A program made the position numbers and the translations under genes. Below are positions 3,163 through 39,664 of a stretch of DNA of 39,839 bases, one piece after another. The notes below the pieces were generated by a model. That model did not search any database. It had not been told where the DNA came from and saw nothing but the letters and a program-made list of their open reading frames with translations. The DNA comes from Naegleria gruberi (taxonomy: Eukaryota), in assembly GCA_000004985.1 (NCBI GenBank), contig GG738940.1; one strand, 5' to 3'. The number at the start of each line of letters is the position of its first letter. Position 1 is the first letter of the stretch.

Positions 3163-3615
3163 TTACAAGGATGGTTTGATGATTGGCTTTGATGGCTTCT
3201 TGCATGTCTTTCTCTTGATACAAATCTTCTTCTTAATTGACTTGCAACACTTCTTCTTTCCACCAACTAATTTGAATTTCTTACAAATCTTCTTTCCCTT
3301 TGAACGTTTCAAACACTTCTTATAATACTTCTTCTTGATACATCTTGGGGGAATGACAATTGACTTGGCACAATACTTCTTCTTATTATATTTAACACAT
3401 TTAGAAAGAGTCTTCTTGTGCTTACAGAACTTGATTGTCTTATGCTTGGCACAGAAGAATTTCTTCTTAATGAGACAACATTTCTTGACTGATTTTCTCT
3501 CCTTACAGTATTTAACCTTCTTATACTTGGCACATTTCTTTGCCCATGAAACAATCTTACACTTTTTAACATATCTACATTTGGCAACCTTCTTATTGTA
3601 GGAATCAACAGTGTA
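3163..3615 (-). CDS. Lys/Cys-rich periodic-repeat protein. This is the 3' part of a gene: the ORF is open up to the edge of the gap and ends at a TAA at 3163..3165. Its function is unknown.
   Basis: Reverse-complement translation gives 150 sense codons with no stop: YTVDSYNKKVAKCRYVKKCKIVSWAKKCAKYKKVKYCKERKSVKKCC...KKICIKRKTCKKPSKPIIKPSL*. Cys recurs every ~9 residues among Lys. The ORF track misses it because there is no in-frame start within 60 codons. The underlying DNA shows a 27-nt imperfect periodicity. Confidence 0.45.
   Translation of the reverse strand, partial: YTVDSYNKKVAKCRYVKKCKIVSWAKKCAKYKKVKYCKERKSVKKCCLIKKKFFCAKHKTIKFCKHKKTLSKCVKYNKKKYCAKSIVIPPRCIKKKYYKKCLKRSKGKKICKKFKLVGGKKKCCKSIKKKICIKRKTCKKPSKPIIKPSL
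3330..3600. repeat. imperfect tandem periodicity of ~27 nt (cttggcaca... / ttcttcttaat... units) underlying the K/C-rich ORF
   Basis: Recurring cttggcaca and ttcttctta motifs lie at multiples of 9 codons (by eye). Confidence 0.4.
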
Positions 3616-7769: not shown

Positions 7770-7775
7770 ATCTAT

Positions 7776-9275: not shown

Positions 9276-9589
9276 TTCAAACCAGATTAAAATTACTATT
9301 ATTTGATGATGATTATTACTACAAGGAATGATGAATTCTCACTCCAGTGATACAGACTTGACACAATAAGTTTTAAGAATTGCAATAAAGCCTTAGTAAA
9401 AATTTTTATATTGAGCAGCAACAACACAAAAACAATTAAAAGAAAAATTTTTTTTGGAGATAGTGAAGAGGAACAAGAACAACCGACACTAACGAAAAGT
9501 GTAGAGTAAGGCTAATACTGTCTGTTAAAGAAATCACGCTAGCCTCTTTTCATATTTGGAATATTCGTAAATGGTTCCAATTAAAAAAA

Positions 9590-11304: not shown

Positions 11305-11446
11305 CATTTAATATAAATTATTTAATACAACTTAATTTTTAACATTATTACAATATGTAAAATCTTAATTTCTAAATAACAACCAAATTGAAAGCAAAAA
11401 GTAAAAAACGCAGAAATTATTATTTTCTATAAATTAATTTAAAAAA

Positions 11447-11770
11447 ATGTCTGAACCTCAAGGTGCAACCCTCCGTAATGCTCGTTCTATCTACAATGCC
11501 AATGAAATGACATTGGCTATGAATGTTGCTAAATCACGTGAACGTTGCAGATGGGCTGGTGGTTACTTGAGTGTATTAACTATTGGTAGTATGGGTTATT
11601 GGGCCCTTGCTAAGAAATTCCCTGTCGGAGCCTTGATTCCTATCAGTGCTGTTGCAACCTATGCTTTGTGGGAATATGATTTAGGATATGGAAATAAATT
11701 ACATAGAATGGGTCAAGAAGCACAACAAATTCAAACCAAGGAAAGATATAAATATTTCGGAAAGTATTAA
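11447..11770 (+). CDS. small two-TM membrane protein, PLGRKT (plasminogen receptor KT)-like
   Basis: 107 aa. The motif ...VATYALWEYDLGYGNKLHRMGQEAQ matches the conserved YDLGYG-x-L-x-RM-x-EA core of the PLGRKT family. A preceding hydrophobic helix is also present. Confidence 0.5.
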   Translation: MSEPQGATLRNARSIYNANEMTLAMNVAKSRERCRWAGGYLSVLTIGSMGYWALAKKFPVGALIPISAVATYALWEYDLGYGNKLHRMGQEAQQIQTKERYKYFGKY

Positions 11771-11986
11771 ATACTCTTGTGATGATATACTTCAGCAAGC
11801 ATTGGATATGTAAATTGGATGTTATTGTTATCAGCACGGTTGATTGGTGCTATAGGCAATAATTTTGGCTCAATTTGTTTAATTATTATTATAAGGAATG
11901 CAGAAAAGGCGAATATAATTTATTTTGTAAATAAATTATTGTTTTATTAACATTTTATCATCTTTGAAGACATTACTTTTGATAAT

Positions 11987-13249
11987 TTAGTGGAACAACA
12001 TTTTAGAGATCAAATCAGGACCTAATTCTTCATAATCAGCACGTCTAATCCAACGATCTTGGAATGAAGACAAACTTGAAAGAATTGAACCACCAATCCA
12101 AACTGAATATTTACGTTCAGGAGGAGCAATAATTCGTAATCTAACAGCACCACCTACCATACGTGTCATTTCACGTGTTAAACGTTCTTGAATACCCTTA
12201 ATAAGAGTATTACCACCAGAGAGAATGACATTCTTAAACATATTCTTTCTGATATCCATATTACAATGTTGAATTGAGGTATTTAACAATTCGTGAATAC
12301 CCAATTCTTCTGAACCAATCATATTTGGTTGGAACAAAATTTCTGCAGCTTGGAAACGTTCACAATCAATATTAATAAATGTACCATCTGGTAATTGGAA
12401 TTGATTTCTGAATTCATTCTTCTTTGATTCTTGGAATAATTTCAAAGTGTGATCATAATTCAAAGCAACATAACATGAAGCTTCCTTAACATCACGAACG
12501 AAATCTAATGAAGCACTATTTTGTGTAAAATCATATCCAGAATGTTGTAACATTAATTTTGTTAAATGATTAGTAATATCACAACCTGCCAATTCACTTT
12601 TTAACATGGCATATGTTTGAGGATAACCTTCAAACACTGGAACAACGTGTGTCGATCCATCACCTGAATCTAAAACAATACCATCTAAATCACCAGTTGC
12701 ATATATTGAGAGCAATCCTTGAATTGCAAAGAATAATGAATGTGATTGGAATTTTTCAAATAATAATTGAATATACTGTTGACGATGAGTGACTGATGTC
12801 AATGGTTGTTCTGTCAATAAAATTGGGTGATCTTTTGGATTAACACGTAAATGGAAATGATAAATATGTTCTAATAACAATTCAATATCATCCCAATTTT
12901 GAACACCTTTACCTCCACGATTAATTGGATGAGATAATTCACAAATACCCTTTCTTTGATGGGCTTCCAATCCAACAAAATATGATTTTGCTTCATTCAT
13001 TTTCTCTCTTGCTCCAAATAATTTACGAGTGTCGACATGACTTTTTGGTTTTCCAATAATTGTTGGGAAAACTGCTTTTGGAAATTGTTCTCCTGCCAAT
13101 CCTGCTTTAACAAAACTACTTCCCAAATCACAAACAATGGCTCCTTGATGGTCACGAATTAAATTCATGGTATTGATGTGTCCGGTATGAGCAACAATGG
13201 TATCATCATTGATAGCTTGTGCTCTCTTATTATATGGTATATAGGACAT
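11987..13249 (-). CDS. actin-related protein (Arp1/Arp2-like; actin fold)
   Basis: IVCDLGSSFVKAGLAGEQFPKAVFPTIIGKPK corresponds to the actin N-terminal phosphate-1 region. The sequence also has LLTEQPL, IVLDSGDGSTHVVPVFEGY, SVWIGGSILSSLSSFQDRWI and a GPDLISKMLFH tail. I estimate roughly 40% identity to actin by eye, and there is an N-terminal extension. Confidence 0.75.
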   Translation of the reverse strand: MSYIPYNKRAQAINDDTIVAHTGHINTMNLIRDHQGAIVCDLGSSFVKAGLAGEQFPKAVFPTIIGKPKSHVDTRKLFGAREKMNEAKSYFVGLEAHQRKGICELSHPINRGGKGVQNWDDIELLLEHIYHFHLRVNPKDHPILLTEQPLTSVTHRQQYIQLLFEKFQSHSLFFAIQGLLSIYATGDLDGIVLDSGDGSTHVVPVFEGYPQTYAMLKSELAGCDITNHLTKLMLQHSGYDFTQNSASLDFVRDVKEASCYVALNYDHTLKLFQESKKNEFRNQFQLPDGTFINIDCERFQAAEILFQPNMIGSEELGIHELLNTSIQHCNMDIRKNMFKNVILSGGNTLIKGIQERLTREMTRMVGGAVRLRIIAPPERKYSVWIGGSILSSLSSFQDRWIRRADYEELGPDLISKMLFH

Positions 13250-13499
13250 TGTGAAAATATAAAGATACTGTTATTATTATTTCTGCACTGTTGATGAAGA
13301 ATTTTTTTTGATGAGTGAAGGTAATGGATGACATTTAAATGACAGACAGGTGAAAATAGATTACTCTATATTGTCTGATCATTAAGAGTGAAAAAACATC
13401 ATCAATTACTAATTGATGATGAAAATTAATTGAATTTGTTTTTATAGTATAGTAGTACATGCAAAATTGTTGAAATAAATAAGTAGATCTCTCACAAAA

Positions 13500-14627
13500 T
13501 TAATCCTTCTTTTTCTTCTTCTTGTCATCCTCATCATCGGAATCATCCACGTCATCTTCTCTGATATCATCCAATCCTCTTCCAACTAATTTTCTCCAAA
13601 CAATCTTTGAAATTAAGGAAAACCAAAAGATGTGAAGACAAACCAACATTGCCATCAAAGCGATCAAAGCCCAATATGGACTTAAACAATAACGTTGGAG
13701 GCAAATACCATAATCACTAACTTCAATAGGAGTCACGGAATCACTCACATAACGTACCAGATAATATCTTGATGGATAATCCCAACCTGCATAATTTGTC
13801 AATGATTTAAGAATAAGTGATGGGAAGTAAATTAATCTCAACAATAAGAAAGCCAACACAAAGAGAACAAATAATGCTGTAGTGGTGGATTCCCTTGCTT
13901 TCATGTGTTTAGAAGCCTTGGCACAGTAGAGAAAAATATCGACAACATCATGTAAAATTAATACTAATGTTCCAATACGATGATAATAAACGGAAATACA
14001 ACCATAAATCAAGCCAATAGTAACCAAGTGATGAACGAGCATTTCCCAGAAATCCTTCATCTTTTCATCAACAAAAATCAGTGTAAATAAAGCTTGAACA
14101 TAGAAACCTGCTCCTACAAGCAAATATTCTCTCATAAGTGGATATTCAAAGCCAGTGTGTTGTTCAGGATAACCAATAATTAAATGATTTAAATCAAATA
14201 ACCACGGAGTTTGTTGCAAAATTAAAAAGCCTGCAATTGATGATATTGTATAATAAAGAGAAAACCAAGTATTTTCTTGAACTCTGTGAGCTTTAGCTGC
14301 AGCTTCCTTTTCATCCTTTTTATCATTTGATTTCTTGTTCAATCCAAATAAGTGAGCAACAATTTTTTCAATAACAAGTCGTCTAACAATAAAGATAATC
14401 ACAGCAGAAATTAATACAAATTGTGTATCTTGATAAAGCCAATTACTTCTTCTTATTGGTGCAGGTTCATTACTACCAAAAATCATAGGGAAGGAATGCG
14501 GTGGACCATTTATAATACCTTCTTTTTGTGTATAAAGATAGGAATTATTAGATCCCATCACTCCGAACCAAGAATCAACCACGTGATAAAACAAGTTACC
14601 ACCAGCAGCTGTTTGAGATGAAGACAT
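13500..14627 (-). CDS. ceramide synthase (TLC / Lag1-type) multi-pass membrane protein with an acidic-then-lysine C-terminal tail
   Basis: The Lag1 motif is present: HHLVTIGLIYGCISVYYHRIGTLVLILHDVVDIFLYCAKASKHMK (conserved HH ... D..D..L..K). Several TM helices are predicted. The C-terminus reads DDVDDSDDEDDKKKKKKD. Confidence 0.75.
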   Translation of the reverse strand: MSSSQTAAGGNLFYHVVDSWFGVMGSNNSYLYTQKEGIINGPPHSFPMIFGSNEPAPIRRSNWLYQDTQFVLISAVIIFIVRRLVIEKIVAHLFGLNKKSNDKKDEKEAAAKAHRVQENTWFSLYYTISSIAGFLILQQTPWLFDLNHLIIGYPEQHTGFEYPLMREYLLVGAGFYVQALFTLIFVDEKMKDFWEMLVHHLVTIGLIYGCISVYYHRIGTLVLILHDVVDIFLYCAKASKHMKARESTTTALFVLFVLAFLLLRLIYFPSLILKSLTNYAGWDYPSRYYLVRYVSDSVTPIEVSDYGICLQRYCLSPYWALIALMAMLVCLHIFWFSLISKIVWRKLVGRGLDDIREDDVDDSDDEDDKKKKKKD

Positions 14628-14888
14628 TTTTTACGAGTGAGTTGAAATTTTGTGTGTTGAATATTTGGGCGCCAAATTTGTACGAAAAATGTAACCGTTG
14701 GGTCTTCGAAGGAAAATTAGAAAGTCTTAAGCGTGCAAGCGAAGAAGGCAGCTTGGAAGTTGTTTTTTTTCTACTTGAGATTTGTTTTAATGTTCTAATG
14801 ATGTTGTTATCATGATCACAGTGGATAACACATCAGTAAGGCTTCTAGAAACATTAATCGCTATCCCGGTGTTATCCAACTAAATCTT

Positions 14889-14948
14889 CTCTCTCCGCNN
14901 NNNNNNNNNNNNNNNNNNNNNNNNNNNNNNNNNNNNNNNNNNNNNNNN
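14889..14948. other. assembly gap (60 N) in the divergent intergenic region between the TLC and formin genes
   Basis: N run. Confidence 0.99.
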
Positions 14949-15183
14949 CCTGATCCAAATAATTTCCATGCTTCCCTAAAGGACGGTGTAATATTATGTG
15001 AGTGAGTATTCATATTACAATTATTAACTGTTTAATAATATTAATAATAATATTAATAATAATAATATTTAATAATATTGAATTTAATACAATTTAAACA
15101 ATTATAATAGATTAATTGTAAAATTACGTGGTCTTAAATATGGCAATTATCAAAAGGAAGTAAATGGAACATCATTTAAAGAA

Positions 15184-18100
15184 ATGGAAAATATTGCCTT
15201 CTTTATTCAAAATGTTCAAAAAATTGGATTAAAATGTGAATGGACAATTAGAGCATTACACAAAAATTCTGATCTTAATTCTGTTTTGAAAACTGTAATT
15301 GATTTATCAAAACATTTTGAAACCAAGTTTAGAAATTCAAATGCAGTCCAATCTAAAAACAGTAGTAGTGAAGAGGAATTATTTACTGGACCTTTCTTGA
15401 AATTACCAATTTTATTTAAACAACCATCAAATGCAACTATTGAAGTGAATGCTTCTGTACCAATGTGGAAAAGTGCATTAAGAAAGACAACCAGTGGTGT
15501 GAAATTAACAAGTGAAACTGAAACAACAACAACTCCAGCAACGACAACGACTGAGGAAAAAACATCAACTCCTACTGCCACAACTCCAATAGAGAAATCT
15601 TCACCAACAACTTTACAAAATACAGTTTCAACTCCTTCTACAGTAGAAGTTAAACCAGAAACTAAAACAACTGCATCAAATTCTAATGCAAGTTCTACTG
15701 CCACTAGTTCAAAAAGTACTGCCACTGCAAGTAAGCAGCAACCAACACAAGAAGTTGTGGAAAAGAAAGTTGAACCAACAAACAAGGATGTTAAAACAAC
15801 ATCCGCCACTGTTGCTACCAAGGAAGTGACCACAAAAACACCAGTAACTACTGAGGTCAATCCAACAAGTGATAAAAAGACAGCAACAGGAACTTCTGCA
15901 AATAATGGCAGTAGCTCAAGTTCGACATCTAATTCATCTACTGGAAATTCATCACCAAGAGAAAAGATTCCTGACAAGACTTCTCCAACAACTGCTGCTA
16001 TTCCTTCTAAGGCAATTTTAAAGCCAACTAGCAAGACAAGCAATAATACTCCTTCTACCCCTCAATCAAGTGGACAAGTGCCTGGGGAATGGACTAAATT
16101 GAAGCCAACAAATTCTGGAAATAACCTCAAAGAAGCTGCCAACTCTGAAAAGCAACCTGAATTTTTAACAAATCGATTAAGACCTGTCTCTGTAAAGATG
16201 AACGCATCACCACTATCTGAAGCACTCAAGAATGAAAATTCAACAAAGGAAACCCCAAGTACAACTGCACCTGTGGTCGAAAAGCAACCAGTGACTAAGG
16301 TTGAACCAGTTAAAGATGTCAAGACTACAACTCCTGTTACTACTAAGGAAGTTACCACAACACCTGTCAAGGAAGAAAAGCTAATTCCTCAAAAAACAAC
16401 TCCTCCAAAAGAGGTTACACCAAGTAAGGATGTTAAAAAAGATCCAGTTTCAACTCCTCAAGAAGCATCTCCTAATACTGGAGTTTCATATTTGGCTAAT
16501 TTGAAATCTACACATGCTAAGAATGTCTCAACTCCAACATCAAATGAAGTGCCAAATTTCAAGGCCCAACTGAAACCAGTTGCCAAACCAGCAAATGAAC
16601 CTTCAAATAATACACCAACATCAGTAAGTGCAACAACAGGAGGCGGTATTTTCCCAGTTCAATTGAAAAAAACAAACATTTCACTTGCATCTTTGGAAAA
16701 TAAGGAAACAACCTCTCCTTCAGGTTCCAACACAAAAACCAATTCAGGATTCGGCTCTCCAAGAAGTGATTCTGGATCAAGTACTACAAATACCAGTCAA
16801 TATGTGGCTAATGAATCTACTGCAGATTCATTGTCTGAAGATGGATCAAGTGTAATGGACTTTGATGAAGATGAAGAAGACATGAGTAATGATCAAGGAA
16901 TTTCTTATAATATTAAGAAATTGAAAGATCAAGTCACTAATCAACATCCTTCTGCTGAATATTTGTACTCACTTTACAAACTTATTGAGAAGAAATCAGT
17001 GAAATGGTGTACAAAATTCTCAGATCAAGAAGGAGGTGCCAAATATCTTGGCCAAATCATCACAACCATGAATGAAAAGAAATATAGAAGTATGAATGAA
17101 AAAACAGTTCAAGAAAGAAGTTTGAAATGTTGTCACGCTCTGATTGAAAAGGGTATTTTTGATCCATTCCTCAAGAATCCAAGTTCTGTTTCTGCGATTA
17201 CTTTCATGATTGATTCAAAAGATGGTATCAAGATTAGAATTATGGCTTTGGAAATCTTGTCATTGATTTGTACTTATAATGAACAAGGTTTTTGGACAGT
17301 TCTGGAAGGGTTAAACAGATACAAAACAGAAAAGAAGGAACCAAGAAGATTCCGTGACTTGATTGAATTCCTTAAAGTAGAAAAGGATGAAAAGTTGAAA
17401 ACTTTCTGTTTAATGTTATTGAACTCACTTATTAACACTCCTCAAGATTCGTTTATTAGAATTTTGATCAGAAATGAATTGAAACAACTTGGATTGGAAA
17501 CAGTTGTTGATAAATTGAGTAATGATCTGCAACATGATAGAATTAGAGATGAAAATTTGAAAGAACAAATTAAAGTTTTCGAAGAAGAAATGATGATTGG
17601 TTTAATTGAAAAAGAACAAGCAGGTGTTTCAGATGATTCTGAGAACACAACTGAAAATCTCTTTAAGAATTTCAAATCCGAGACTGATCCATTGAAAATT
17701 GTCAAATTACTCATCTTGAGATTGGGTGCCACAACTGGTACCTCACATTTGGTATCTATTTTACAAAATTTACTTTCCTACTCGATGAGTTCAAGTATGG
17801 ATCCAAAGTTTGAACCACAATTATTAACAAGTTGGAAGAATTTGGACAATACCATTAAATCAATGGTTCAAGCTTGTCAAATGAAAGGAGATAGTGGTAT
17901 TATTGAAGATATTGCCAAGAAGGAAAAGAATGCCAGTTTTGAGAAACAAAAACAAACTTCCAAGATTTCAAACCTCAACTTGACTATTGAAAAAACCAAC
18001 AAGGAAATTGACGAGTTGAAGAAACAAGTTGAAAATTGGAAGGTCAAATTCAATGAATCAACAAAGAATATTTCTATTCTTTCTAACCAATTGAATAATC

Positions 18101-20352
18101 TCCAAGCCAATAAGGACAACAATGCTCAACCAAATGATGTTAAAGTTGAACCAGTTCAACAAATTATTCCAATTGATACACAAATTTTCACAAAAGAAAT
18201 TGATGAACTGAAATTACTCGTTAAAGAAAAAGAGGATTCCGTAGAGAATGTAAATAAGGAGAATGACAAGCTCAAGGATCAGTTGAAAGAATTGTTAATG
18301 GAATTGGAAGAACACAGAAGAATGTCCTTCAAACAATCCTTACAAACTACTACAGGAACAGTCAGATCTAATTCTAGCAATACTTCGAGCATCTCTGAGG
18401 TCAGCAATCAGAATAGTGCTGTCATTGATCTAGAACCTTCTTTCACAACCGGTGCTGCTGGTTCTGGATTTGTACCTCCACCTCCAGGAGCTAGTGGTAG
18501 TGGATTTGTACCTCCACCTCCAACTGGAGCCTCTTCTGGTGGTTCCAGTCCTAATATTCCTCAAGTTCCAAACATGACTGGAGCTGGTTTACCTCCTCCA
18601 CCTCCTTCTGGTATTGTATCAATGTCAAAGAAGAATCCACTACCAGAATTATCAAAGAGAGCTCCAAAGAGTGCAGTTAAAAACTTTTATGGTGTTGCCA
18701 TCAATAGACATAAGGTTTCACAAACATGTTGGGTTAAAGGTGGTATTGCAGCTGAGTCTAAGGAAGTTCAAATTGATGAAGATGAATTGGAAGACTTGTT
18801 CTCAAATGCTCCAAAAAAGAACAACAAAGACGAGGAAAAGAAGCGTAAGGAATTGATATCATTTGTTGAACCACAAAAAGGAAGCGCTCTCTCAATTTTA
18901 TTGGGATATATTCGATTGGATTATTCTGAGATTAAGAGAGCCATTTTAGAAATGGATGAGGAAGTTTTGACTGCTCAAGTTGTTGATACTCTAAAGGATA
19001 AGATGGCAACTGCTGATGAATTGTCACAAATTGAGGCATACAATGGCGATGCAGATTTATTATCACCTGTAGATAAGTTTTATTTGGCCCTCAAGGATGT
19101 TCCAAGATTGGAAGGAAGATTATTCTGTTGGGCTTCAGATTTAAATTCCAAACAGAAGTATCAGAAGTTTTATCTGATTTGGAAACAGTTTTAACTGCTT
19201 CCACTCAAGTAGTTCAAAGTAGTAGATTTAAGAGATTGTTAGCTGTTATTTTGGCTATTGCTAACTTTTTGAATGCAAACTCTTCATCAAAGAAGAACGC
19301 CTATGGGTTCACATTGAACAGTTTGTCCAAGTTGCAAGACACCAAGACATCAGATAACAAGTCATCTCTCTTACAATATATCAGTTCATATTGTGAAAAA
19401 TCATTCCCTGATCTATTGAATATTAAGGAAGATTTTTCATCATTGGAGGATGCTACTCGTGTTTCCCTCGTTGAATCAGATAATGAATACAGAAAGTTAA
19501 AACAAGGATTTGAAACTATGGAAAGAGAATTACAGAATCCACAATGGGAATCCACAACTTTCAAGAATAACATGAGTGAATTCATGGAAAGTGCCACAAG
19601 ATTTTTAGATGATATTGATTCAATCTTATCAAAGATTGATGAGAAGTTAAAACAAATTGCTGAAGATTTTGCTGAGGACGAAAAGACAGTTTGTAAGAAT
19701 CCAAATGAACTCTTCCAAACCCTCAACAATTTCCTCAATAACTTTAGAAATGGTTATGAAGAACTTGTGAAACAGAGAGAAGCTGACGAAAAGAAGAAAC
19801 TCAAACAAAAAATCATGGAAGAAAAGAAGAAACAATCGGCTGCCTTCTTTTCCAATCATACCAACATGAGAAGTGAGNNNNNNNNNNNNNNNNNNNNNNN
19901 NNNNNNNNNNNNNNNNNNNNNNNNNNNGAAGCAACGATGCTCTCAAATCATCAACCATTACCAATGTACAGCAACAACCAGCAACTACGAGTCCACAAGA
20001 TTCAATTATTCCATCTTCACCACCTCCTCCACCTCCTGTTTCCTCTTCTTTAGAATCATCATCATCATCTACAAGTGAAATTGAATCATTCAATCCTCCA
20101 ACAATCAATACAGAACCAGTGTCATCGACAATTAACACAGAAACGTTATCAACAAGTACTCCAATTGAAGCTGAAACATCTGTAACAACACCATCATCAC
20201 AAGAAACCTCCTCTTCAGATGTAATGTCAGAGGCTGAACATTTAGAACTGTTGACCAAGATGAGAGACAGAAAGAAGAGTATTATGAGTGGATCTGCATT
20301 CAGAGAAAGAAGAATGACAAGATTTGCTATGGAAAGCAATGAACAACAATAA
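15184..20352 (+). CDS. diaphanous-related formin with an S/T-rich N-terminus, GBD/FH3, coiled coil, FH1 poly-Pro, FH2 and C-terminal DAD. The frame changes at ~19129 (GGG run), and the 50-N gap at 19878..19927 also changes the frame.
   Basis: The armadillo-like GBD/FH3 region reads KWCTKFSDQEGGAKYLGQIITTM...ALEILSLICTYNEQGFW. The FH1 region has GFVPPPPGASGSGFVPPPPTG...GLPPPPPSG. The FH2 region has KNFYGVAINRHKVSQTCWVK...LEGRLFCW, and continues in the -1 frame as GFRFKFQTEVSEV...NANSSSKKNAYGFTLNSLSKLQDTKTSDNKSSLL. After the gap, the adjacent frame carries a DAD-like tail: MSEAEHLELLTKMRDRKKSIMSGSAFRERRMTR (compare mDia ...MDSLLEAL..SGAAFRRKR). Confidence 0.8.
19878..19927. other. assembly gap (50 N) inside the formin 3' region
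   Basis: N run. Confidence 0.99.
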
Positions 20353-27375: not shown

Positions 27376-27522
27376 TTTTTTCTTTGTGAGCTGGAAAATG
27401 CAAAAAGAGCTTCTACTTCAAACTTTTAATGAGGAACATTCTATTCACAAGATAACAAAAAACTGGAACACCCAAATCTGTATCTGGATAACCTCAATAC
27501 GTTTCGATATGATACTATTGCT

Positions 27523-31549: not shown

Positions 31550-32565
31550 TCTTTTGTTTTTTTTTTAAAAAGTTTCATCATGACCAGTTTCGTCTATGAA
31601 AAAACAGTTTAGGATGAAAATGGCGATAATTTTCAGCAGTTTGAAGAGGTTAATGTTTTTCATGCAACTAGATGCGAATTGAGGGTATGATGATAGGGAA
31701 AGGGTTTCCAATAAAATCCTTTTTCGCATTGACTGTTTCTTTTCATGCTATCCTAAACCGGACGAATTAAATCTATGGCAACTTTGAAAAAAGCCGAGTT
31801 TATTGAAATGGCAAAAATTTCAACAACACCTTTTTGATGGCATCCAATATAGCATGTTTTACAGTTCGTTGTGAATAACATGGATGCATTTCGAATAGTT
31901 TTGAATGCATTCTTTTTTCATTGTAAAATGCATTCGAAACTGGGTGGTTGTATAAAAACATTCTACTGGCGGGAATATCGTTTAGCCTTCCGCTTGCAAC
32001 TATTTGGAAGAAACTTTTAAAAATTATTTTACAAAATCCTTCCATATTAGGAAATGCCTCAACATGTAATTTCAATAAAGAATCCCAATAACAAATCAAC
32101 AATTGCACAAGTTCATCATATATTGGACTTGATCAGCTTTATTGAAATGTTAAGGTTCTCAATAGAAGCTTAATATGAATGGTCAACTCTCAATTTGGTA
32201 AATTTGTGAGATGAATTTTTGTATTAAAATGGAAATTTTTCTTGGTTGTGTTGGTTATTATTGATTGAAACAGTCTGGTGATGTCCAAAGAAGTTTTGCT
32301 CTTCTCCTTTTTACTGTTAAATACTTTTTTGTAGTTTGTGTGAAAACACTTTACAACACAATATCCAAAAACACAACTTTCTTTCATTTACATTGTTTGT
32401 TTTAAATTCGACTCCATTTCCCACCACTGTTTACAGCAACTATTCGAATTTCTTTCTTACAAGAAAACAATAATTTGTGTTAGAGCATGTTCAAAGGAGA
32501 TGAATCTTTAAAACAAAATTTCAAGAACACAAGAATTTAAAGATATTCTTGCATGTTTAATTGCC

Positions 32566-33461: not shown

Positions 33462-34277
33462 TCAGTAGTTCGATTTCACTTCAAACACTGACCATGACAA
33501 GGCAACTAAGAAATGAATACCAGTTACCAATGCTAAAAACCAAATTTCTGTAACTCCAGAACTACTAACCAATCTTATCAAATTGTCAGGAGTTAAAAAC
33601 TTGATAGAAATGATTGATAATACCATCAATAAAACAATAAATGGCAGATAATGGTAAATCCATAAATGTTGCACCTTATCCAACCATTTCATTCCATCTC
33701 TATAAGCTCCTTCAGTGATATTTGCAACTTTCCATACTGTCTCATTGGTGTCTTGTACAAGTATCTTTGCCGTATTATTAGTAAGCTCTACAGATTGAGA
33801 AAATTGTTGTAACATTTCATTCAGTCCTTCTTGAGTTGCCTTGATGGTTTTGTCGACAATTTGATCTGTTTTATCCAGCACTGCTCTCACAAGAGAGGAA
33901 AACTCAGAGCATAACAAGGCAATATTGTTCAAAATTTCAGTTACATGGGTTTCTATCAAGTGTTGAAAATTGTCAATTTTATCCAACAATACTTTCAACT
34001 TTTGAGAAAATTGAAGTAAAATTTTGGCTGTAAAATCGTCAATCATTTCCTTGGCCTCTTGTACTGTATGAAGAGCCTGATGACCAACACGATCCACCAA
34101 TTTTTGAAACCATACTTTGCAAGTCTTTAGTTCATGTAAAGATTTCTCAACAGTTCCTTTCATGTCGTTTCGAATATTTTTCAATAGAGACTCCAACTTG
34201 TTGGTAGAGGTTTCAATTGCATGACTGACTTCTTTCGCAGCGTCCTTTCCTGCTTCTTTGCCAATACTACCTCCCAT
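33462..34277 (-). CDS. hypothetical helical / coiled-coil protein with an N-terminal MGxxxG (possible N-myristoylation) and a C-terminal hydrophobic hairpin of two TM segments
   Basis: 271-aa ORF. It starts MGGSIGKEAG, is largely alpha-helical and amphipathic, and ends ...HYLPFIVLLMVLSIISIKFL...GVTEIWFLALVTGIHFLVALSWSV. Confidence 0.5.
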   Translation of the reverse strand: MGGSIGKEAGKDAAKEVSHAIETSTNKLESLLKNIRNDMKGTVEKSLHELKTCKVWFQKLVDRVGHQALHTVQEAKEMIDDFTAKILLQFSQKLKVLLDKIDNFQHLIETHVTEILNNIALLCSEFSSLVRAVLDKTDQIVDKTIKATQEGLNEMLQQFSQSVELTNNTAKILVQDTNETVWKVANITEGAYRDGMKWLDKVQHLWIYHYLPFIVLLMVLSIISIKFLTPDNLIRLVSSSGVTEIWFLALVTGIHFLVALSWSVFEVKSNY

Positions 34278-34298
34278 CCTTTCTTTTTGTTTTTTATT

Positions 34299-35117
34299 TT
34301 AAGAATCACGTTTCGAATAAATATTANNNNNNNNNNNNNNNNNNNNNNNNNNNNNNNNNNNNNNNNNNNNNNNNNNAACTGCAATATGATCCTTTTGCTT
34401 GTTTGTGCAAAGAAATATGTCCACAAATTTTGGAACGTCTTTGAATACTTTGATTTCTGTAATTTTCTTCCAATCTCTAGAAATCTTTCGAATTATAATT
34501 CTCTGACTAGAGGGATAATGCTGCAAGATAAAAATTCGACCACTTTCATCAACATCAATGGCTCTAATTTTTGAATCAGAATTTGCTAACAATATCTCAC
34601 TCTCATTTTCGGTAAATGTTGAACCATTTCTGTTAAATGAAACTAGGTAGGTTGAATTTCTGATTTGTTTTGTTGAAAATAGTTTTCCATCAAAGGCTGT
34701 TGCTTTCTGAAGTTTCACCCTTTCGTTTGTCGATAATTCATTCGAATGAAGATTTTCATCATAAGCTGTAATTGTATCATCTCCTTTTCCATCAAATAAA
34801 TGTAAAACTTCATCATTGCTAAACAATACTAATGATGATGCTTTTCTACAATTTGTGTTTGATTTTGAAATTGGAATTAGACTTTTTCTATTGAAAAGTT
34901 CTATACAGCATTCACCAGATGTGATGCCTGCTGTGATGAAGATGTGTGTCTGTGTGGATTGAAGTCCTGTGATTTGGTTGTCAAGAATTATTTCATCAGA
35001 CAAAGTCCACTTGTGGAGCTTTTGCGTTTTCTTTGCAGTTTTGGCTTGGTTGAGCAATAAAATAATCCCACAACAAATTAGAATAATCGCAGCTATTAGT
35101 GCAATATTGTCTTCCAT
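34299..35117 (-). CDS. hypothetical type-II (signal-anchor) membrane protein. The C-terminal end is interrupted by the 50-N gap at 34327..34376.
   Basis: The N-terminus reads MEDNIALIAAIILICCGIILLLNQ, followed by a ~240-aa lumenal/extracellular domain with N-glycosylation sequons. The ORF continuity across the gap is uncertain. Confidence 0.45.
   Translation of the reverse strand: MEDNIALIAAIILICCGIILLLNQAKTAKKTQKLHKWTLSDEIILDNQITGLQSTQTHIFITAGITSGECCIELFNRKSLIPISKSNTNCRKASSLVLFSNDEVLHLFDGKGDDTITAYDENLHSNELSTNERVKLQKATAFDGKLFSTKQIRNSTYLVSFNRNGSTFTENESEILLANSDSKIRAIDVDESGRIFILQHYPSSQRIIIRKISRDWKKITEIKVFKDVPKFVDIFLCTNKQKDHIAVXXXXXXXXXXXXXXXXXNIYSKRDS
34303..34316. promoter_or_regulatory. AATCACGTTTCG element ~25-40 bp upstream of the ATG (34277) of the minus-strand gene 33462..34277
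   Basis: The 12-mer aatcacgtttcg is repeated exactly at 35139..35150, at the equivalent position upstream of the next gene. Confidence 0.35.
34327..34376. other. assembly gap (50 N)
   Basis: N run. Confidence 0.99.
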
Positions 35118-35137
35118 TTTTTACTTTATGAAACTTC

Positions 35138-35221
35138 AAATCACGTTTCGTGTAATTTCTGGTTGACTGTCACGTTTTTGTATTGACAGCAGCATTCTAA
35201 TTGACTTGGCACGTTTAAGTT
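35138..35221. promoter_or_regulatory. cluster of three CACGTTT motifs (including AATCACGTTTCG) in the 137-bp divergent promoter between the 34299..35117 gene (minus) and the VLIG-like gene (plus)
   Basis: The copies are caaatcacgtttcgtg (35138..), gtcacgtttttg (35169..) and ggcacgtttaag (35210..). Confidence 0.35.
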
Positions 35222-35254
35222 TTCACAATAATCCAAAATAAAAAACAATCAACC

Positions 35255-38200
35255 ATGGGTCTCAAGAAAGGTGCAAACAAGACTAAAACCTCCAAAACCA
35301 ATATTAGAGCAAAGGTGGTTGAATCCATTCAACGAACTCCAAAAATTACCATTGAACAGAACCGAGCTGTTAATATTCCTCGGTATCATCAAATTATATT
35401 TTCTGATCTGATCAGTAAAGAGAACTCATTGGGTGAAGCACACTGTGAGAAACCAACCACTCCATTCCTTTCTGACTCAACCGACACTGAATGTCATAAC
35501 TTTAGAGTTATGCTTGACATTATTGGTCAAGAAATCAAGTTGAGAAACGTTCAAAACCTGGAAGATGTACTGACCAGATTACGTGAACCATACAAAAAGC
35601 CAAAACAACATACGTACGAAAATCTTCCATGGGTTCTCAAAGTAGATGCTGTAACTTGGATTCAAATCTTTCTCAATTGTTGTGATGATTTTACAAGAAC
35701 AACAGTAATAAGACATATTTTACAATGCTCATCCATGCCTGTTCCTTTCATTCAAAGAGCAAATTTTGAACAAGATGGTAAATTGTCAGCTTTCAATCTA
35801 GATTACATTTTAAACGACAACGAATTACCGGTTCTTGAACAAAAGATGCTTCTCTGCTTGGACATGGGTGATAATGGTACAATAATGAAGCAATTAGTAA
35901 GAGGTTACAAGCAAATTGAATCCACGTCCATGGAATTGAGAGATGGTAATGTTGGACTATATGTCAATAGTAATTGTAAATATCCAATTGTTGCTCATAT
36001 CAACGATGAATTCAAAGCTGTTCCGTCAACCTTGAAGTCTATGCTTTCAATTGTTGATGCAGTGCTATTCATATTTGATCAGGATGGTTCACCTGAAGTT
36101 ATGGAACTCATTATAGATGAAATGAAACAGAGTAATTTGCCATACTACATGATATCTAAAGTGTCAAAGAGAACATTGGATGATTCAGATGATGCAGTGT
36201 TCGAAGAGGAGGATTATCATCCAACTCAAGGTTCCAATGATATTATTACCTGGATTAATACCATCGTCAAAACTCCTAAAAAGAGTACCTTCCAATATCC
36301 TCCCGATGTAGAAATTATCAAGAGCTATCCTATCTTTGAAAATGATCCATTAAGAGAGTTTTATTCCATTCTATTCGAGACTTTAAAAAGTGAGAAAGAT
36401 ACTGAGGGTGCAGATTTCAAAAAGAAATATTTTCCAATTACAACACATGCAAATGCAATTCAAGAAATGCAAGATCAAGTGTTTGCAAACAAGCAACTTC
36501 CATACTCAACGAAGAAAGAAGAAGAAGATTTCATTGCCCTTGGAAAGGTTACCTCTGAAAAGTATTTGACTCAAAATCCTTCCAAATTCATGATTAAACT
36601 TTTGAAGGCATTGAAATTGGCTGTAGAGAATAATTTGTTTCAACAATTATGGAATGTTTTTACATTTCATATTCATATTTTTGCCTATCCAAAAGTTCAA
36701 AACATTAAGCAAGAAGTACTTGGTTTAATTGATCAAATTGAAGAGCTTGAAAATTCGAATCAGCAACCTAATGAACCTCAAGCTAAGGACTTGGAAAAGA
36801 AAAAGTCAGAGTTGGAACAAGAAAAGAAAAAATTAGAGAGAAAAATGCAATCAGAATCGATTGGTGTTGAACATTTCTGGAGAGAAATTTTCCATATTTG
36901 GGTACAAATGGATAAGAAAACTATTGAGAATGTCTCAAAGAACAATGTAATGTCAGCAATACAATGTGCTATGATGACAGGATTCCCCATTGAAATTATT
37001 GATGGCGACTCCAACTCAATTAATGAACATTTCTTAGAAGAATTCTTTACAAAGCTGCCAAGCGATATTGCAAAAAGTAGAGTTCTATTTGTTTCAATTC
37101 TTGGCCATCAAAGTTCTTACAAAAGTACTGTTATGAACTCACTATTTAATAGTCAGTTTTCAATGGGTCAAGGAAAATGTACAAGAGGTGTTCAAATTTC
37201 CTTACACAAGTGTTCGCACACATCAAAATATGATTATATTGTTGCTTGTGATGTTGAAGGTTTAGAATCTGTTGAAATGGAGATTAACAAGAACTCTTCT
37301 TTTAATTCATTCTTTTATAATCATAGATTGGCTTTAGTTTCTATTTACTTGTCGCATTTAGTTCTTATTTCAAGTAAGGGTGAAGTTGACGCAACATTAA
37401 CAGGTACATTAGAAGTCTGTATTTATGCCATGGCCATGTTGAAGAAGACATTATCTCATCCTTCATTCTGTGTGGTTTCAAACAATTGTACTGACACTAA
37501 ACAAGATGCATTACTTCACAATGACAAAATCAAACAGTTATTAGTGAGAGGAGTCTCTAAATTCAATGAGCACTTTAATGAAGACGTCCAATTATCAGAT
37601 CTGGTTCCATCTCGTGAGTGCATGTATTTGACACCTGCTTTTGAACCAGAAACTAAAAACTTTACCAGAAGTTATAGTTACAGAGTACGAAAGTTGTTGG
37701 ACTATATTTTGACAATTCCAACACATCAAGATTTCTCAAACTTTGGTTCTTGGGTAACCAATCTATTGAGTGCGTGGAAATCTTTGAGAGAACACGATTT
37801 CGCTCTCTGTTATAAAGACTTGACAGAGTTAGAAAACTTCCAACAACTGAAAAACATAGGCAAAGAGTATGAGTCTTCTGTGGCACTTGAATTGGAACAA
37901 TTGGTATTGAAATATCGTACGGAAAACGTTGATTACTTGGAAGTTATTGCCAAAATTGAAGACCTTGCCTTTCAAGTATTTGAAAACTATAAGGAAAAAA
38001 TCAAAGAAGACAAATTCATGTTATGGAAAGACAAATTTACAATCAATTTTGATAATTTCAAGAATGATTACATAACAAAAAAGAAAGCAGAGATGAAAGT
38101 TGTTCAGGCATTTAAAAATACTACCAATCAAGTTGGTGACGCTATTCAGCAAGTTAACAGAAAAATCAAAGAGGAATATCAGCTATTGAAACAAATGTCA

Positions 38201-39664
38201 GAAAAAGAGAGAGAAGAAAGAATCAATACTTATTGGATGGAAAGCAGAGCCAATATCCAAAAAGTTTCTGAAGATTTCAAAAAAAGAATTGAAGAAATGG
38301 AATATGAATACCGTGGACTTGTTAGAAGATATTGGATAGAAACCAATTTATCATGCCAAGCTCTATCAAAAGAAGATGTTGACGTTGATGAAAAAGCGTA
38401 TATTCTTTTGGTAAAGGTTTCAAAAGAACAATTTAGAACACTTTTTGATCAAATTGGCTTAGAAATTAGTAAGAGAGGGAGATTTTCAATTTATGAGTTC
38501 GGTGATATGTCAACCCATTTGTCTAATCTTTACAATGGATGGTGTGGAAAGAATCATCTTGAACCTTGTATTGAAAGAAGAAAAAAGGTTTTTGGATATT
38601 GTATCAATCCACTTCTTCAGCAATACACAAAGAAGGAAACAGAGTTTGTCAATGAAAATGATCCTCTCATCAAATATGACAACACCAAACCAGTATTCAT
38701 AGCTACAGCTAATACGTCATTCAAAGATATTGTTGATGATTTTGACAATGCCAAAAACATTGCTAAAAAATTATATGATCTAATCCAGTCAATCGCAATA
38801 GATTCCTGCTATCTAAAGATATACAATTATTTGGAGAACTCCTTATTGCTTAGTAATTTAGAATTTGATTCTGCTAAATTAGCAAAGGAAAATAATTTAC
38901 TTGGTGCAAAACTTTACTTCACAAATATTGAACTATTTGCAAAGAATTATCTGGTTAAAGAACAAGAAAAAATTATTTCTCAAAATATTCAAGATCTATT
39001 GCAAGAGATGAATACTGTTATTGGAAATCATGTCCGGTTTTTAAATGAAATAATATCAAATAGTGAACCATCCAATGCTCAAGACTTGTATGAAAAGATA
39101 AAGCAACAGTCCTCATCCACAAAATATGCAAACCTTGGCTCTGAATTCACAGTAATACTTTTCAAGGATTGTAGTACTATTGGAGGAAAAATAAGCCAAG
39201 AGCTTACCAGTTTAAAAGAGAAATCTCCAATTACAACCATACCAGTATTTGAATTTGATGACCTCCTGAAAAGAAAAATTGGCTGTACTCATCAATGCCC
39301 TTGTTGTGGAGCAAAGTGTGCTCATGGTTATGGACATTCTGAAAATCATAGCACTATAGTTCACCATTTTTGCTCTTTTAGAAGCGTTCGCGAAAAGCAT
39401 TCGCAGGAGGCTTGTTTGGAGCTTTGTACTGAACAAAAACCTGGAACGCTCTGGAATGACATTCCTTGGGGTGAGTATGTTACCAAGGGAGATATGGCCA
39501 ACTGGGATGTAAAGTATGACCAGGCGTCTACCAGATCTGCAAGAATGTGGGTGAAAAAGATGTGGTCTGTTTTGGGAGAAGAGTTTTGTAAAGAATATAG
39601 AATGAAATTCAAAACAGATCCATCATGGGCTGACATAACATGGGAGAGTCTCAATATCAATTAA
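35255..39664 (+). CDS. VLIG / URGCP-like very large GTPase-family protein (1469 aa) with a non-canonical P-loop (GHQSSYKST instead of GxQSSGKST) and a C-terminal Cys/His-rich cluster
   Basis: The motif VLFVSILGHQSSYKSTVMNSLFNSQFSMGQGKCTRGVQISL matches the VLIG-family G1 region pattern [VL]LG.QSSGKSTLLN.LFG..F......CTRG. Downstream, DYIVACDVEGLESVE matches the DxEGL switch/G3 region, and NHRLALVSIYLSHLVL parallels the family's DNELATF.IGLSD block. The C-terminus reads CTHQCPCCGAKCAHGYGHSENHSTIVHHFCSF. It is a single uninterrupted ORF. Confidence 0.6.
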   Translation: MGLKKGANKTKTSKTNIRAKVVESIQRTPKITIEQNRAVNIPRYHQIIFSDLISKENSLGEAHCEKPTTPFLSDSTDTECHNFRVMLDIIGQEIKLRNVQNLEDVLTRLREPYKKPKQHTYENLPWVLKVDAVTWIQIFLNCCDDFTRTTVIRHILQCSSMPVPFIQRANFEQDGKLSAFNLDYILNDNELPVLEQKMLLCLDMGDNGTIMKQLVRGYKQIESTSMELRDGNVGLYVNSNCKYPIVAHINDEFKAVPSTLKSMLSIVDAVLFIFDQDGSPEVMELIIDEMKQSNLPYYMISKVSKRTLDDSDDAVFEEEDYHPTQGSNDIITWINTIVKTPKKSTFQYPPDVEIIKSYPIFENDPLREFYSILFETLKSEKDTEGADFKKKYFPITTHANAIQEMQDQVFANKQLPYSTKKEEEDFIALGKVTSEKYLTQNPSKFMIKLLKALKLAVENNLFQQLWNVFTFHIHIFAYPKVQNIKQEVLGLIDQIEELENSNQQPNEPQAKDLEKKKSELEQEKKKLERKMQSESIGVEHFWREIFHIWVQMDKKTIENVSKNNVMSAIQCAMMTGFPIEIIDGDSNSINEHFLEEFFTKLPSDIAKSRVLFVSILGHQSSYKSTVMNSLFNSQFSMGQGKCTRGVQISLHKCSHTSKYDYIVACDVEGLESVEMEINKNSSFNSFFYNHRLALVSIYLSHLVLISSKGEVDATLTGTLEVCIYAMAMLKKTLSHPSFCVVSNNCTDTKQDALLHNDKIKQLLVRGVSKFNEHFNEDVQLSDLVPSRECMYLTPAFEPETKNFTRSYSYRVRKLLDYILTIPTHQDFSNFGSWVTNLLSAWKSLREHDFALCYKDLTELENFQQLKNIGKEYESSVALELEQLVLKYRTENVDYLEVIAKIEDLAFQVFENYKEKIKEDKFMLWKDKFTINFDNFKNDYITKKKAEMKVVQAFKNTTNQVGDAIQQVNRKIKEEYQLLKQMSEKEREERINTYWMESRANIQKVSEDFKKRIEEMEYEYRGLVRRYWIETNLSCQALSKEDVDVDEKAYILLVKVSKEQFRTLFDQIGLEISKRGRFSIYEFGDMSTHLSNLYNGWCGKNHLEPCIERRKKVFGYCINPLLQQYTKKETEFVNENDPLIKYDNTKPVFIATANTSFKDIVDDFDNAKNIAKKLYDLIQSIAIDSCYLKIYNYLENSLLLSNLEFDSAKLAKENNLLGAKLYFTNIELFAKNYLVKEQEKIISQNIQDLLQEMNTVIGNHVRFLNEIISNSEPSNAQDLYEKIKQQSSSTKYANLGSEFTVILFKDCSTIGGKISQELTSLKEKSPITTIPVFEFDDLLKRKIGCTHQCPCCGAKCAHGYGHSENHSTIVHHFCSFRSVREKHSQEACLELCTEQKPGTLWNDIPWGEYVTKGDMANWDVKYDQASTRSARMWVKKMWSVLGEEFCKEYRMKFKTDPSWADITWESLNIN

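What the first reader, a model, noticed from the sequence alone, without database searches (positions are those of the whole stretch)
34303..35221. Shared AATCACGTTTCG promoter element and CACGTTT triplet upstream of adjacent membrane-protein genes and the VLIG-like gene
The exact 12-mer aatcacgtttcg occurs twice, at 34305..34316 and 35139..35150. Each copy lies 20-40 bp upstream of the ATG of a minus-strand membrane-protein gene (starts at 34277 and 35117). The second region has two more CACGTTT copies (35171, 35211) within the 137-bp divergent promoter shared with the VLIG-like gene. An exact 12-mer repeated at the same promoter position in neighbouring genes is unlikely by chance in 40 kb. 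It suggests a common cis-element, possibly co-regulating these three genes. Its ACGT core gives it a bZIP/bHLH-site-like look.
Basis: seen in the sequence. Interest (0 to 1): 0.55.

Follow-up and report, generated by a model that had tools for sequence, protein, structure and literature searches.

The report
Shared promoter motif, three Naegleria genes
A short DNA word (core AAACGTGA, longest form CGAAACGTGATT) recurs five times in the two small gaps between three neighbouring Naegleria gruberi genes, more often than chance allows, so it is probably a shared binding site for a gene regulator; this is untested and of modest importance.

Summary
The window is a whole 39,839-bp Naegleria gruberi scaffold. 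It lies 27-38 and 22-33 nt upstream of the annotated or obvious ATGs of two minus-strand membrane-protein genes. CACGTTT recurs at 35171 and 35210, in the 137-bp divergent promoter shared with a genuine VLIG/URGCP-type GTPase gene.

The cluster is still non-random. All three TCACGTTT copies and 4 of 5 CACGTTT copies fall in these two intergenic regions. In a Markov null, four copies of any complex 7-mer occur with P = 0.0007. This is also the only repeated 12-mer with two CpGs.

A 99%-identical metagenome contig fills the N gap next to copy A with 306 bp. It reveals a fifth, degenerate copy.

My best reading (about 0.5) is a transcription-factor site cluster co-regulating a lineage-specific three-gene module. 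Neutral micro-duplication is the main rival. No orthologous promoters, genome-wide counts or expression data could be obtained. Canonical E-box, G-box, CRE, ISRE and GAS definitions are not met. This is a modest, plausible and unproven cis-element.

The parts
34304..34315 (-). Copy A: CGAAACGTGATT in gene orientation (AATCACGTTTCG on the + strand). It lies at -27..-38 from the ATG of the 271-aa gene. An AT-rich TAATATTTATT sits immediately upstream.
34327..34376 (.). Assembly gap of 50 N. In the 99%-identical contig L002 it is 306 bp (L002 674-979). That stretch holds the rest of the gene-1 promoter, the 3' end of gene 2, and degenerate copy A2. A2 is AATCACATTCAC at L002 689-700, -65..-76 from the gene-1 ATG. 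Its 17-nt block AATGTGATTTGAAGCTT matches copy B's AACGTGATTTGAAGTTT at 15 of 17 positions.
35139..35150 (-). Copy B: CGAAACGTGATT. It lies at -22..-33 from the gene-2 ATG and at -105..-116 from the GTPase ATG. It extends to a 20-nt imperfect palindrome, GAAACGTGATTTGAAGTTTC.
35170..35177 (-). Copy C: TCACGTTT (AAACGTGA in gene-2 orientation). It lies at -53..-60 from gene 2 and -78..-85 from the GTPase. TTGACT (35163-35168) precedes it.
35210..35216 (-). Copy D: CACGTTT (GCACGTTT). It lies at -39..-45 from the GTPase ATG and -93..-99 from gene 2. TTGACT (35201-35206) precedes it.
35157..35227 (+). Two imperfect direct-repeat units of about 32 nt, at 35157-35188 and 35195-35227, spaced 38-39 bp apart. 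Each carries TTCTnnTTGACT, then 2-3 nt, then CACGTTT, then a diverged tail. The core is identical and the flanks are about 70-80% alike.
33462..34277 (-). Gene 1: 271-aa predicted protein NAEGRDRAFT_76210. It is all-helical with two C-terminal hydrophobic helices. It has no family assignment and is a singleton cluster.
34377..35117 (-). Gene 2: the 5' 247 codons visible in the window. The full length is 305 aa in L002 (803-1720, minus strand). It has an N-terminal hydrophobic anchor helix followed by an all-beta domain, and no family assignment.
35255..39664 (+). VLIG/URGCP-type giant GTPase, 1469 aa, NAEGRDRAFT_82298. It is transcribed divergently from gene 2.
27499..27506 (-). Possible outlying copy: ACGTTTCG (CGAAACGT in gene orientation), 124-131 nt upstream of the ATG (27375) of a TKL-type kinase gene. 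It has the same orientation as A and B. The match is weak (8 nt only).

Best explanation
The repeated word is a DNA-level cis-regulatory motif. Its core is AAACGTGA (TCACGTTT on the + strand) and its longest shared form is CGAAACGTGATT. It is present as a small cluster of sites in the two short intergenic regions that flank gene 2.

Each of the three genes has one copy close to its ATG: A at -27 for gene 1, B at -22 for gene 2, and D at -39 for the GTPase. Additional copies (A2, C) lie 30-40 bp further out.

The inferred mechanism is that one sequence-specific transcription factor occupies these sites. The factor recognises an ACGTG-type half-site, and its class is unknown. It would switch the VLIG-type GTPase and the two small membrane proteins on or off together, as one lineage-specific module. 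The 137-bp region would act as a bidirectional promoter.

The copies probably arose by small local duplications and were then kept.

Shown: the sequence pattern, its non-randomness, the gene identities and the start codons.
Inferred: factor binding, co-regulation, and any biological role.
For: - The exact 12-mer sits at near-identical distance and in the same orientation upstream of two adjacent genes.
- All 3 TCACGTTT copies and 4 of 5 CACGTTT copies in 39.8 kb lie in these two intergenic regions.
- TCACGTTT is absent from 42.8 kb of related Naegleria DNA.
- ACGTTTCG occurs 4 times against 0.15 expected.
- AAACGTG is the highest-ranking word containing G or C among 7-mers enriched within 140 bp upstream of ATGs on the scaffold: 4 of 5 copies, binomial p = 9e-5.
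- The Markov null for four copies of any complex 7-mer gives P = 0.0007.
- It is the only repeated 12-mer with two CpGs, in a CpG-poor sequence.
- A fifth copy found in the filled gap shares a different flank (TTGAAG) with copy B.
- In the C/D repeat the 7-nt core is identical while the flanks have diverged. This is the pattern expected if the core is under constraint.
- No RNA structure is associated with the copies: z-scores are -1.0, +1.4 and +0.6. This favours a DNA-level role.
- The start codons match the public annotation.
Against: - There is no functional, expression or binding evidence of any kind.
- There is no evolutionary test. The only other copy of the locus is 99% identical. The GTPase has no close homologue in other Naegleria species. 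Synteny with N. fowleri and N. lovaniensis ends about 13 kb from the cluster.
- With only five sites, 'core conserved, flanks diverged' is not statistically secure.
- The C/D pair, and possibly A/A2, are parts of local duplications, so the copies are not independent events.
- Full Bonferroni correction over all 7-mers removes the significance of the upstream enrichment.
- Transcription start sites are unknown, so some copies may lie in 5' UTRs.
- The motif matches no canonical site definition that I tested.
Confidence: 0.5

Rival explanations
1. The copies are neutral relics of small local duplications. Slippage or tandem micro-duplication (units of about 38-39 bp), plus one short dispersed duplication or gene-conversion tract between the two promoters, copied the same AT-rich intergenic segment. 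The copies are decaying and bind nothing in particular.
For: - C and D lie in a roughly 32-nt imperfect direct repeat spaced 38-39 bp apart.
- A and A2 are also 38 bp apart.
- B shares its left part with A and its right part with A2, as expected from common descent.
- All copies are in the same orientation.
- The copies are confined to about 0.9 kb.
Against: - Identity is concentrated in the CpG-containing core, while the flanks are 70-80% alike or unalignable. Neutral decay should not spare the core.
- CpG is under-represented in this sequence, at observed/expected 0.40.
- TRF finds no tandem array here.
- Each of the three genes ends up with one copy 22-45 nt from its ATG.
Confidence: 0.28
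2. The element is functional, but not as an upstream activator site. It would be either a core-promoter or initiator-proximal element, or a 5'-UTR (RNA-level) element. It would act on start-site choice, mRNA stability or translation of genes 1 and 2. Copies C and D would then be incidental.
For: - A and B sit only 22-38 nt from the ATGs, in the same orientation relative to both genes.
- In gene 1 an AT-rich TATA-like run, TAATATTTATT, directly precedes the motif.
- Leaders on this scaffold are short and A-rich.
Against: - There is no significant RNA secondary structure around any copy.
- C and D carry the same core, in inverted orientation relative to the GTPase gene and further from gene 2. 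That fits an orientation-independent DNA site better.
- The motif is absent from the other roughly 17 promoters on the scaffold, so it is not a general core element.
Confidence: 0.12
3. Pure coincidence in an AT-rich, repeat-prone 40-kb sequence that was read by eye for anything unusual.
For: - Hundreds of 12-mers repeat in the window.
- P(any shared 12-mer among 20 promoter-sized segments) = 0.136.
- The criteria (adjacency, CpG content, position) were chosen after the fact.
Against: - The joint pattern is improbable: P = 0.0007 for four copies of a complex 7-mer in these two regions.
- Two of those copies additionally extend to 12 of 12 matches at matching distances from their ATGs.
Confidence: 0.05

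Closest known systems
Homotypic clusters of transcription-factor sites in short bidirectional promoters of compact eukaryotic genomes (e.g. the yeast GAL1-GAL10 UAS; from general knowledge)
   Same: Several copies of one short word lie within 137 bp between two divergently transcribed genes. One copy is proximal to each gene. The same word also occurs in the next promoter of the cluster.
   Different: No factor, no binding data and no expression data exist here. The organism has no described promoter motifs in the searchable literature. The copies are all in one orientation and are partly embedded in a local duplication.
ACGT-core / RCGTG-core elements: plant G-box and ABRE (bZIP), E-box CACGTG (bHLH), the non-canonical CACGTT site of yeast Pho4, and hypoxia-type RCGTG (recalled from general knowledge, not tested)
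   Same: Every strong copy contains ACGT and ACGTG. CACGTT is the half-degenerate form of the CACGTG E-box/G-box.
   Different: There is no CANNTG, no CACGTG, no TGACG and no palindrome common to the copies. The conserved flanks (CGAA...ATT) have no counterpart in those elements that I can point to. The presence of bZIP or bHLH factors in N. gruberi was not examined.
Interferon-stimulated promoters (ISRE/GAS) of vertebrate VLIG/GVIN, GBP and IRG GTPase genes
   Same: A VLIG-type giant GTPase gene sits behind a compact promoter carrying repeated copies of a specific short element. It is clustered with other small genes that carry the same element.
   Different: ISRE (GAAANNGAAA) and GAS (TTCNNNGAA) are absent. 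Naegleria has no interferon system, and inducibility is unknown. The resemblance is one of logic only.

Membership tests
bHLH E-box | Hexamer CANNTG (class B: CACGTG) | tested here: not met
   There is no CANNTG or CACGTG on either strand of the 178-bp or the 137-bp intergenic region. The copies read CACGTT.
bZIP ACGT elements (G-box, C-box, CRE) | ACGT core inside a palindromic or pseudo-palindromic site (CACGTG, GACGTC, TGACGTCA) | tested here: inconclusive
   The ACGT core is present in A, B, C and D. TGACG, TGACGTCA and CACGTG are absent, and no palindrome is shared by all copies.
bZIP / bHLH regulated element | A cognate bZIP or bHLH factor encoded by the organism and binding the site | not testable with these tools
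   The N. gruberi proteome could not be queried as a whole, and no binding data exist. The transcription factors on this scaffold are E2F and two Zn2Cys6-type proteins. Their known site types, recalled from general knowledge, do not resemble the motif.
ISRE / GAS (promoters of interferon-inducible GTPases) | GAAANNGAAA or TTCNNNGAA | tested here: not met
   Neither pattern occurs in either intergenic region.
Homotypic binding-site cluster | At least 3 copies of one specific word within a few hundred bp of non-coding DNA, beyond the compositional expectation | tested here: met
   CACGTTT occurs 3 times in 137 bp, plus once (and one degenerate copy) in the neighbouring 178 bp. P = 0.0007 under a first-order Markov null.
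Conserved cis-regulatory element | Retention of the motif in orthologous promoters whose flanks have diverged | not testable with these tools
   The only second copy of the locus is 99% identical. No orthologues of the GTPase were found in other Naegleria species. Synteny is lost before the cluster.
General core-promoter element of the organism | Presence at a fixed position in a large share of promoters | tested here: not met
   The motif is absent from the other roughly 17 upstream regions on the scaffold. This is a small sample of one scaffold.
VLIG / URGCP / GVIN giant GTPases (for the flanking gene) | URGCP-like (VLIG-type) G domain scoring above the family threshold | tested here: met
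   PF25683 URGCP_GTPase scores 127.9 bits against a cut-off of 55, E = 5e-37. A precomputed weak GVIN1_C hit is recorded. The best remote hits are named VLIG-type, interferon-induced very large GTPase or URGCP-like.
W-box (WRKY site) | TTGAC[CT] | tested here: inconclusive
   TTGACT occurs 2-3 nt upstream of the core in units C and D only. These two units are one duplication event. The presence of WRKY factors was not examined.

The most novel reading that the evidence does not exclude
The three genes form an inducible, lineage-specific cell-autonomous defence module of a bacterivorous amoeba. The module would comprise a VLIG-type giant GTPase and two small membrane proteins. It would be switched on through a dedicated promoter word (CGAAACGTGATT / AAACGTGA) that plays the role ISRE/GAS elements play for vertebrate interferon-inducible GTPases. 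That would make 'giant GTPase plus private inducible promoter code' a recurring solution far outside animals.
Probability: 0.08. Interest if true: 0.65.

Novelty: new member of a known kind. Interest (0 to 1): 0.3.

Why it matters
I found no described promoter or transcription-factor site for Naegleria in the searchable literature. A validated motif would therefore be a useful first handle on gene regulation in Heterolobosea, and a possible tool for regulated expression constructs.

The cluster is also the only context clue for a VLIG-type giant GTPase in a protist. This family is otherwise known from vertebrate interferon responses. Co-regulation with two membrane proteins would suggest partners and a testable function.

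As it stands, this is one small candidate regulon on one scaffold, of a very ordinary kind (a short repeated promoter word).

Tried and rejected
1. Orthologous or paralogous promoters.
- The word-indexed protein search with the GTPase found only its own cluster.
- A concatenated query of five neighbouring proteins returned nothing. It missed even the self-hit that the collection demonstrably holds. I treat this as an artefact of concatenation and a wasted search.
- The exhaustive HMMER search found only remote relatives at 24-36% identity; the ten best-scoring I looked up were vertebrate or unnamed.
- The JGI metagenome protein scan found nothing.

2. Walking along N. fowleri and N. lovaniensis synteny from the Arp gene. 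The loci were fetched. Similarity to the window stops at the 3' end of the formin gene, about 13 kb short of the cluster.

3. Metagenome DNA scan for AATCACGTTTCGNNTAA.

4. RNA-structure hypothesis for the leaders. No fold is better than shuffles.

5. Tandem-repeat explanation via TRF. No array was detected in the promoter. The repeat finder shows only the imperfect two-unit repeat.

6. Structure-based function for genes 1 and 2. The single-sequence AlphaFold models have pLDDT 63 and 51, too low for a fold search. PDB and Pfam sequence searches found nothing significant.

7. Literature. There are no papers on Naegleria promoter motifs, on these locus tags, or with held expression tables.

8. 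CpG-to-TpG decay by cytosine methylation as the origin of degenerate copy A2. I did not pursue this, because N. gruberi is reported to have 0.28% 5mC with no CpG preference (PMC12344493).

9. The other exact matches. The 14-mer AATTGACTTGGCAC at 3358 lies in a coding-like repeat. ACGTTTCG at 22750 and AATCACGTGA at 11532 are coding. I judge all three to be chance.

Full report
**What the sequence is.** The window is a complete 39,839-bp scaffold of the amoeboflagellate Naegleria gruberi.
- An actin-family ORF at 11987-13249 is 100% identical to NAEGRDRAFT_44886, whose longest contig is 39,839 bp.
- The sequence is about 33% G+C, carries five N gaps, and is densely packed with eukaryotic genes. 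These include E2F, a formin, a TKL-type kinase, two Zn2Cys6 proteins and a TLC-domain protein.
- The two ORFs that frame the finding are annotated exactly as I read them. The 271-aa ORF at 33462-34277 (minus) is NAEGRDRAFT_76210. The 1469-aa ORF at 35255-39664 (plus) is NAEGRDRAFT_82298.

**The observation.**
- AATCACGTTTCG occurs exactly twice, at 34304-34315 and 35139-35150.
- In gene orientation both copies read CGAAACGTGATT. They lie at -27..-38 and -22..-33 from the ATGs at 34277 and 35117.
- CACGTTT occurs five times in the window, all on the + strand: 10141 (coding), 34307, 35142, 35171 and 35210.
- The divergent intergenic region between gene 2 and the GTPase gene is 137 bp.

- The window contains 239 non-low-complexity maximal direct repeats of at least 12 nt.
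- 674 distinct 12-mers occur at least twice.

Placement and clustering are nevertheless unusual.
- Drawing 20 random real 60-bp segments from the window gives a shared same-orientation 12-mer in 13.6% of trials. The figure is 1.6% if the word must have at least 5 G/C.
- This is the only one of the 674 repeated 12-mers with two CpGs, in a sequence whose CpG observed/expected is 0.40.
- The 8-mer TCACGTTT occurs three times, all in these two intergenic regions. It occurs not at all in 42.8 kb of N. lovaniensis and N. fowleri DNA.
- ACGTTTCG occurs four times against 0.15 expected.
- A scan of all 7-mers for enrichment within 140 bp upstream of about 20 ATGs ranks AAACGTG fourth. It is the highest-ranking word that contains a G or C other than the leader word GTAAAAA: 4 of 5 copies upstream, p = 9e-5 uncorrected.
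- A first-order Markov simulation of two regions with the same size and dinucleotide content gives four copies of any four-letter 7-mer in 14 of 20,000 trials. That is about 0.01 after allowing for the number of neighbouring intergenic pairs.
- Two of the copies additionally extend to 12 of 12 matches at matching distances from their ATGs.

I consider chance effectively excluded.

**New anatomy.** The GTPase's 90% cluster contained a 128-aa fragment from an ENA metagenome. Its 2,267-bp contig (L002) is 99.1-99.4% identical to window 33654-35607 and spans both promoters.
- It replaces the 50-N gap (34327-34376) with 306 bp.
- It gives the full gene 2 (305 aa).
- It shows that the true spacer between the gene-2 stop and the gene-1 ATG is 178 bp.
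- In that hidden sequence, 38 bp upstream of copy A, is a fifth, degenerate copy (A2). In gene orientation AATGTGATTTGAAGCTT matches copy B's AACGTGATTTGAAGTTT at 15 of 17 positions.
- Copy B therefore shares its 5' part (CGAAACGTGATT) with A, and its 3' part (GTGATTTGAAG) with A2.
- In the 137-bp promoter, copies C and D sit in two imperfect units of about 32 nt, spaced 38-39 bp apart. The units read TTCTnnTTGACT, then 2-3 nt, then CACGTTT, then a diverged tail. The 7-nt core is identical and the flanks have diverged.
- Each gene thus has one copy close to its ATG: A at -27, B at -22, and D at -39 for the GTPase. Extra copies lie one unit further out.
- All copies are in the same orientation on the chromosome, so they are inverted relative to the GTPase gene.
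- A weak outlying 8-nt match (ACGTTTCG, 27499) lies 124 nt upstream of the kinase gene, in the same orientation.
- At 99% identity the metagenome strain says nothing about constraint.

**The genes.**
- The 1469-aa protein matches Pfam URGCP_GTPase well above threshold.
- An exhaustive HMMER search finds more than 1,000 relatives at E < 1e-10, all remote at 24-36% identity. Of the ten best-scoring I looked up, eight carry organism names and all are vertebrates. They are annotated as VLIG-type G-domain proteins, interferon-induced very large GTPase-like, or URGCP-like.
- None of the ten best-scoring hits I looked up is from Naegleria, and the word-indexed search found no relative outside the protein's own cluster. 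The N. fowleri and N. lovaniensis proteomes are in the word-indexed collection.
- Gene 1 is predicted all-helical with C-terminal hydrophobic helices. Gene 2 has an N-terminal hydrophobic helix followed by beta strands. Both models have low confidence.
- Neither small protein matches any family or solved structure.
- 'Membrane-protein genes' and 'VLIG-like gene' are therefore fair labels.

**How it most likely works.** I commit, at about 0.5, to a DNA-level transcription-factor site cluster that co-regulates the three genes.
- The 137-bp region would act as a bidirectional promoter.
- The copies were probably generated by small duplications and then retained.

Points in favour:
- the concentration of identity in a CpG-containing core;
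- one proximal copy per gene;
- orientation-independence with respect to the GTPase gene;
- the absence of any RNA fold better than shuffles.

The main rival, at about 0.28, is that the copies are simply decaying products of local micro-duplication. With five sites I cannot separate the two readings.

A core-promoter or 5'-UTR role is possible, at about 0.12. It fits poorly with copies C and D, and with the absence of the word from the other promoters on the scaffold.

**Comparison with known elements.**
- The ACGT/ACGTG core recalls bZIP and bHLH sites.
- Canonical definitions fail, however. There is no CANNTG, CACGTG, TGACG or TGACGTCA, and also no ISRE or GAS, in either intergenic region.
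- TTGACT (W-box-like) precedes the core in units C and D only.
- The factor class therefore remains open.
- I found no paper describing Naegleria promoter motifs, or these genes.

**What could not be done.** I could not obtain genome-wide positional enrichment, co-expression data or orthologous promoters.
- Protein-based and DNA-based scans of metagenomes found nothing useful.
- Synteny with N. fowleri and N. lovaniensis is conserved from about 6.4 to 20.3 kb of the window. It is lost beyond the formin gene.
- One of three homology searches was wasted on a concatenated query that failed.

**Verdict.** This is a real, non-random repeated promoter word. It defines a plausible three-gene module around an unusual protist VLIG-type GTPase.
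- The kind of feature is ordinary, a candidate transcription-factor site cluster.
- Function is unproven.
- Interest is 0.3, and novelty is 'new member of a known kind'.

Noticed in passing
window 35255-39664: The N. gruberi VLIG/URGCP-type GTPase has only remote relatives (24-36% identity). The eight named proteins among the ten best-scoring I looked up are all vertebrate. None from other Naegleria species turned up among those ten or in the word-indexed search. This is a patchy distribution that could reflect loss, extreme divergence or gene transfer. Its P-loop reads GHQSSYKS, with Y where the canonical GxxxxGKS has G.
   Followed up: partly
window 34327-34376 (L002 674-979): The 50-N assembly gap corresponds to 306 bp in a 99%-identical metagenome contig (ENA ERZ929261). 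Filling it gives a full-length 305-aa gene 2 and a 178-bp spacer before gene 1.
   Followed up: yes
window 34287-34300 and 35235-35248: The 14-mer AAAATAAAAAACAA sits in the same orientation at -10..-23 of the gene-1 ATG and at -7..-20 of the GTPase ATG. Similar A-rich leaders (ATAAAAAACA, GTAAAAA) precede several other ATGs on the scaffold. It is probably a general leader or initiation context rather than part of the motif.
   Followed up: partly
window about 14663-14679: A near-palindromic E2F-type site (AAATTTGGCGCCCAAAT in gene orientation) lies 36-52 nt upstream of the TLC-domain gene, in the promoter it shares divergently with the formin gene. An E2F gene lies on the same scaffold (123-1610). 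In the N. lovaniensis and N. fowleri loci, TTTGGCGCC occurs only inside the called formin gene, not in the TLC-formin intergenic region.
   Followed up: partly
whole window: CpG observed/expected is 0.40, with an excess of TpG and CpA. Published methylomes report only 0.28% 5mC and no CpG preference in N. gruberi (PMC12344493). The cause of the CpG depletion is unexplained.
   Followed up: no
window 31884-31935: ATGCATT occurs three times, 21-23 bp apart (31884, 31905, 31928), flanked by TTCGAA-type words. This lies in a region without a convincing gene, upstream of the 195-aa membrane-protein ORF. Unexplained.
   Followed up: no
L005-L120 (JGI metagenome contigs, e.g. Ga0209755, Ga0123355): The pattern AATCACGTTTCGNNTAA hit more than 100 contigs of one unrelated repeat family (consensus ...CTATAGAAACCTACGGGAAATCACGTTTCGGCTAACGAATGTGATTCCGGAACGAATTA...). 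The matches are often at contig ends, and L048 has three copies 145 bp apart. This is a high-copy interspersed or satellite repeat of some other organism, not connected to Naegleria.
   Followed up: partly
window 6400-20340; L003, L004: The gene order (DUF2368 protein, actin-family protein, TLC protein, formin) is conserved between N. gruberi, N. lovaniensis and N. fowleri. Similarity stops at the 3' end of the formin gene. The right-hand 19 kb of the scaffold, including the motif cluster, has no counterpart in the fetched loci.
   Followed up: partly
L002 2211-2267: The last 57 bp of the metagenome contig do not match the window. They introduce a stop after codon 128 of the GTPase. This is a likely assembly chimera or strain-specific rearrangement.
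   Followed up: no
window 3300-3600: A run of CTTCTT- and TTGGCAC-containing repeats next to the 814-N gap reads, on the minus strand, like a Cys/Lys-rich repeat coding region. It shares a chance 14-mer (AATTGACTTGGCAC) with the divergent promoter.
   Followed up: no
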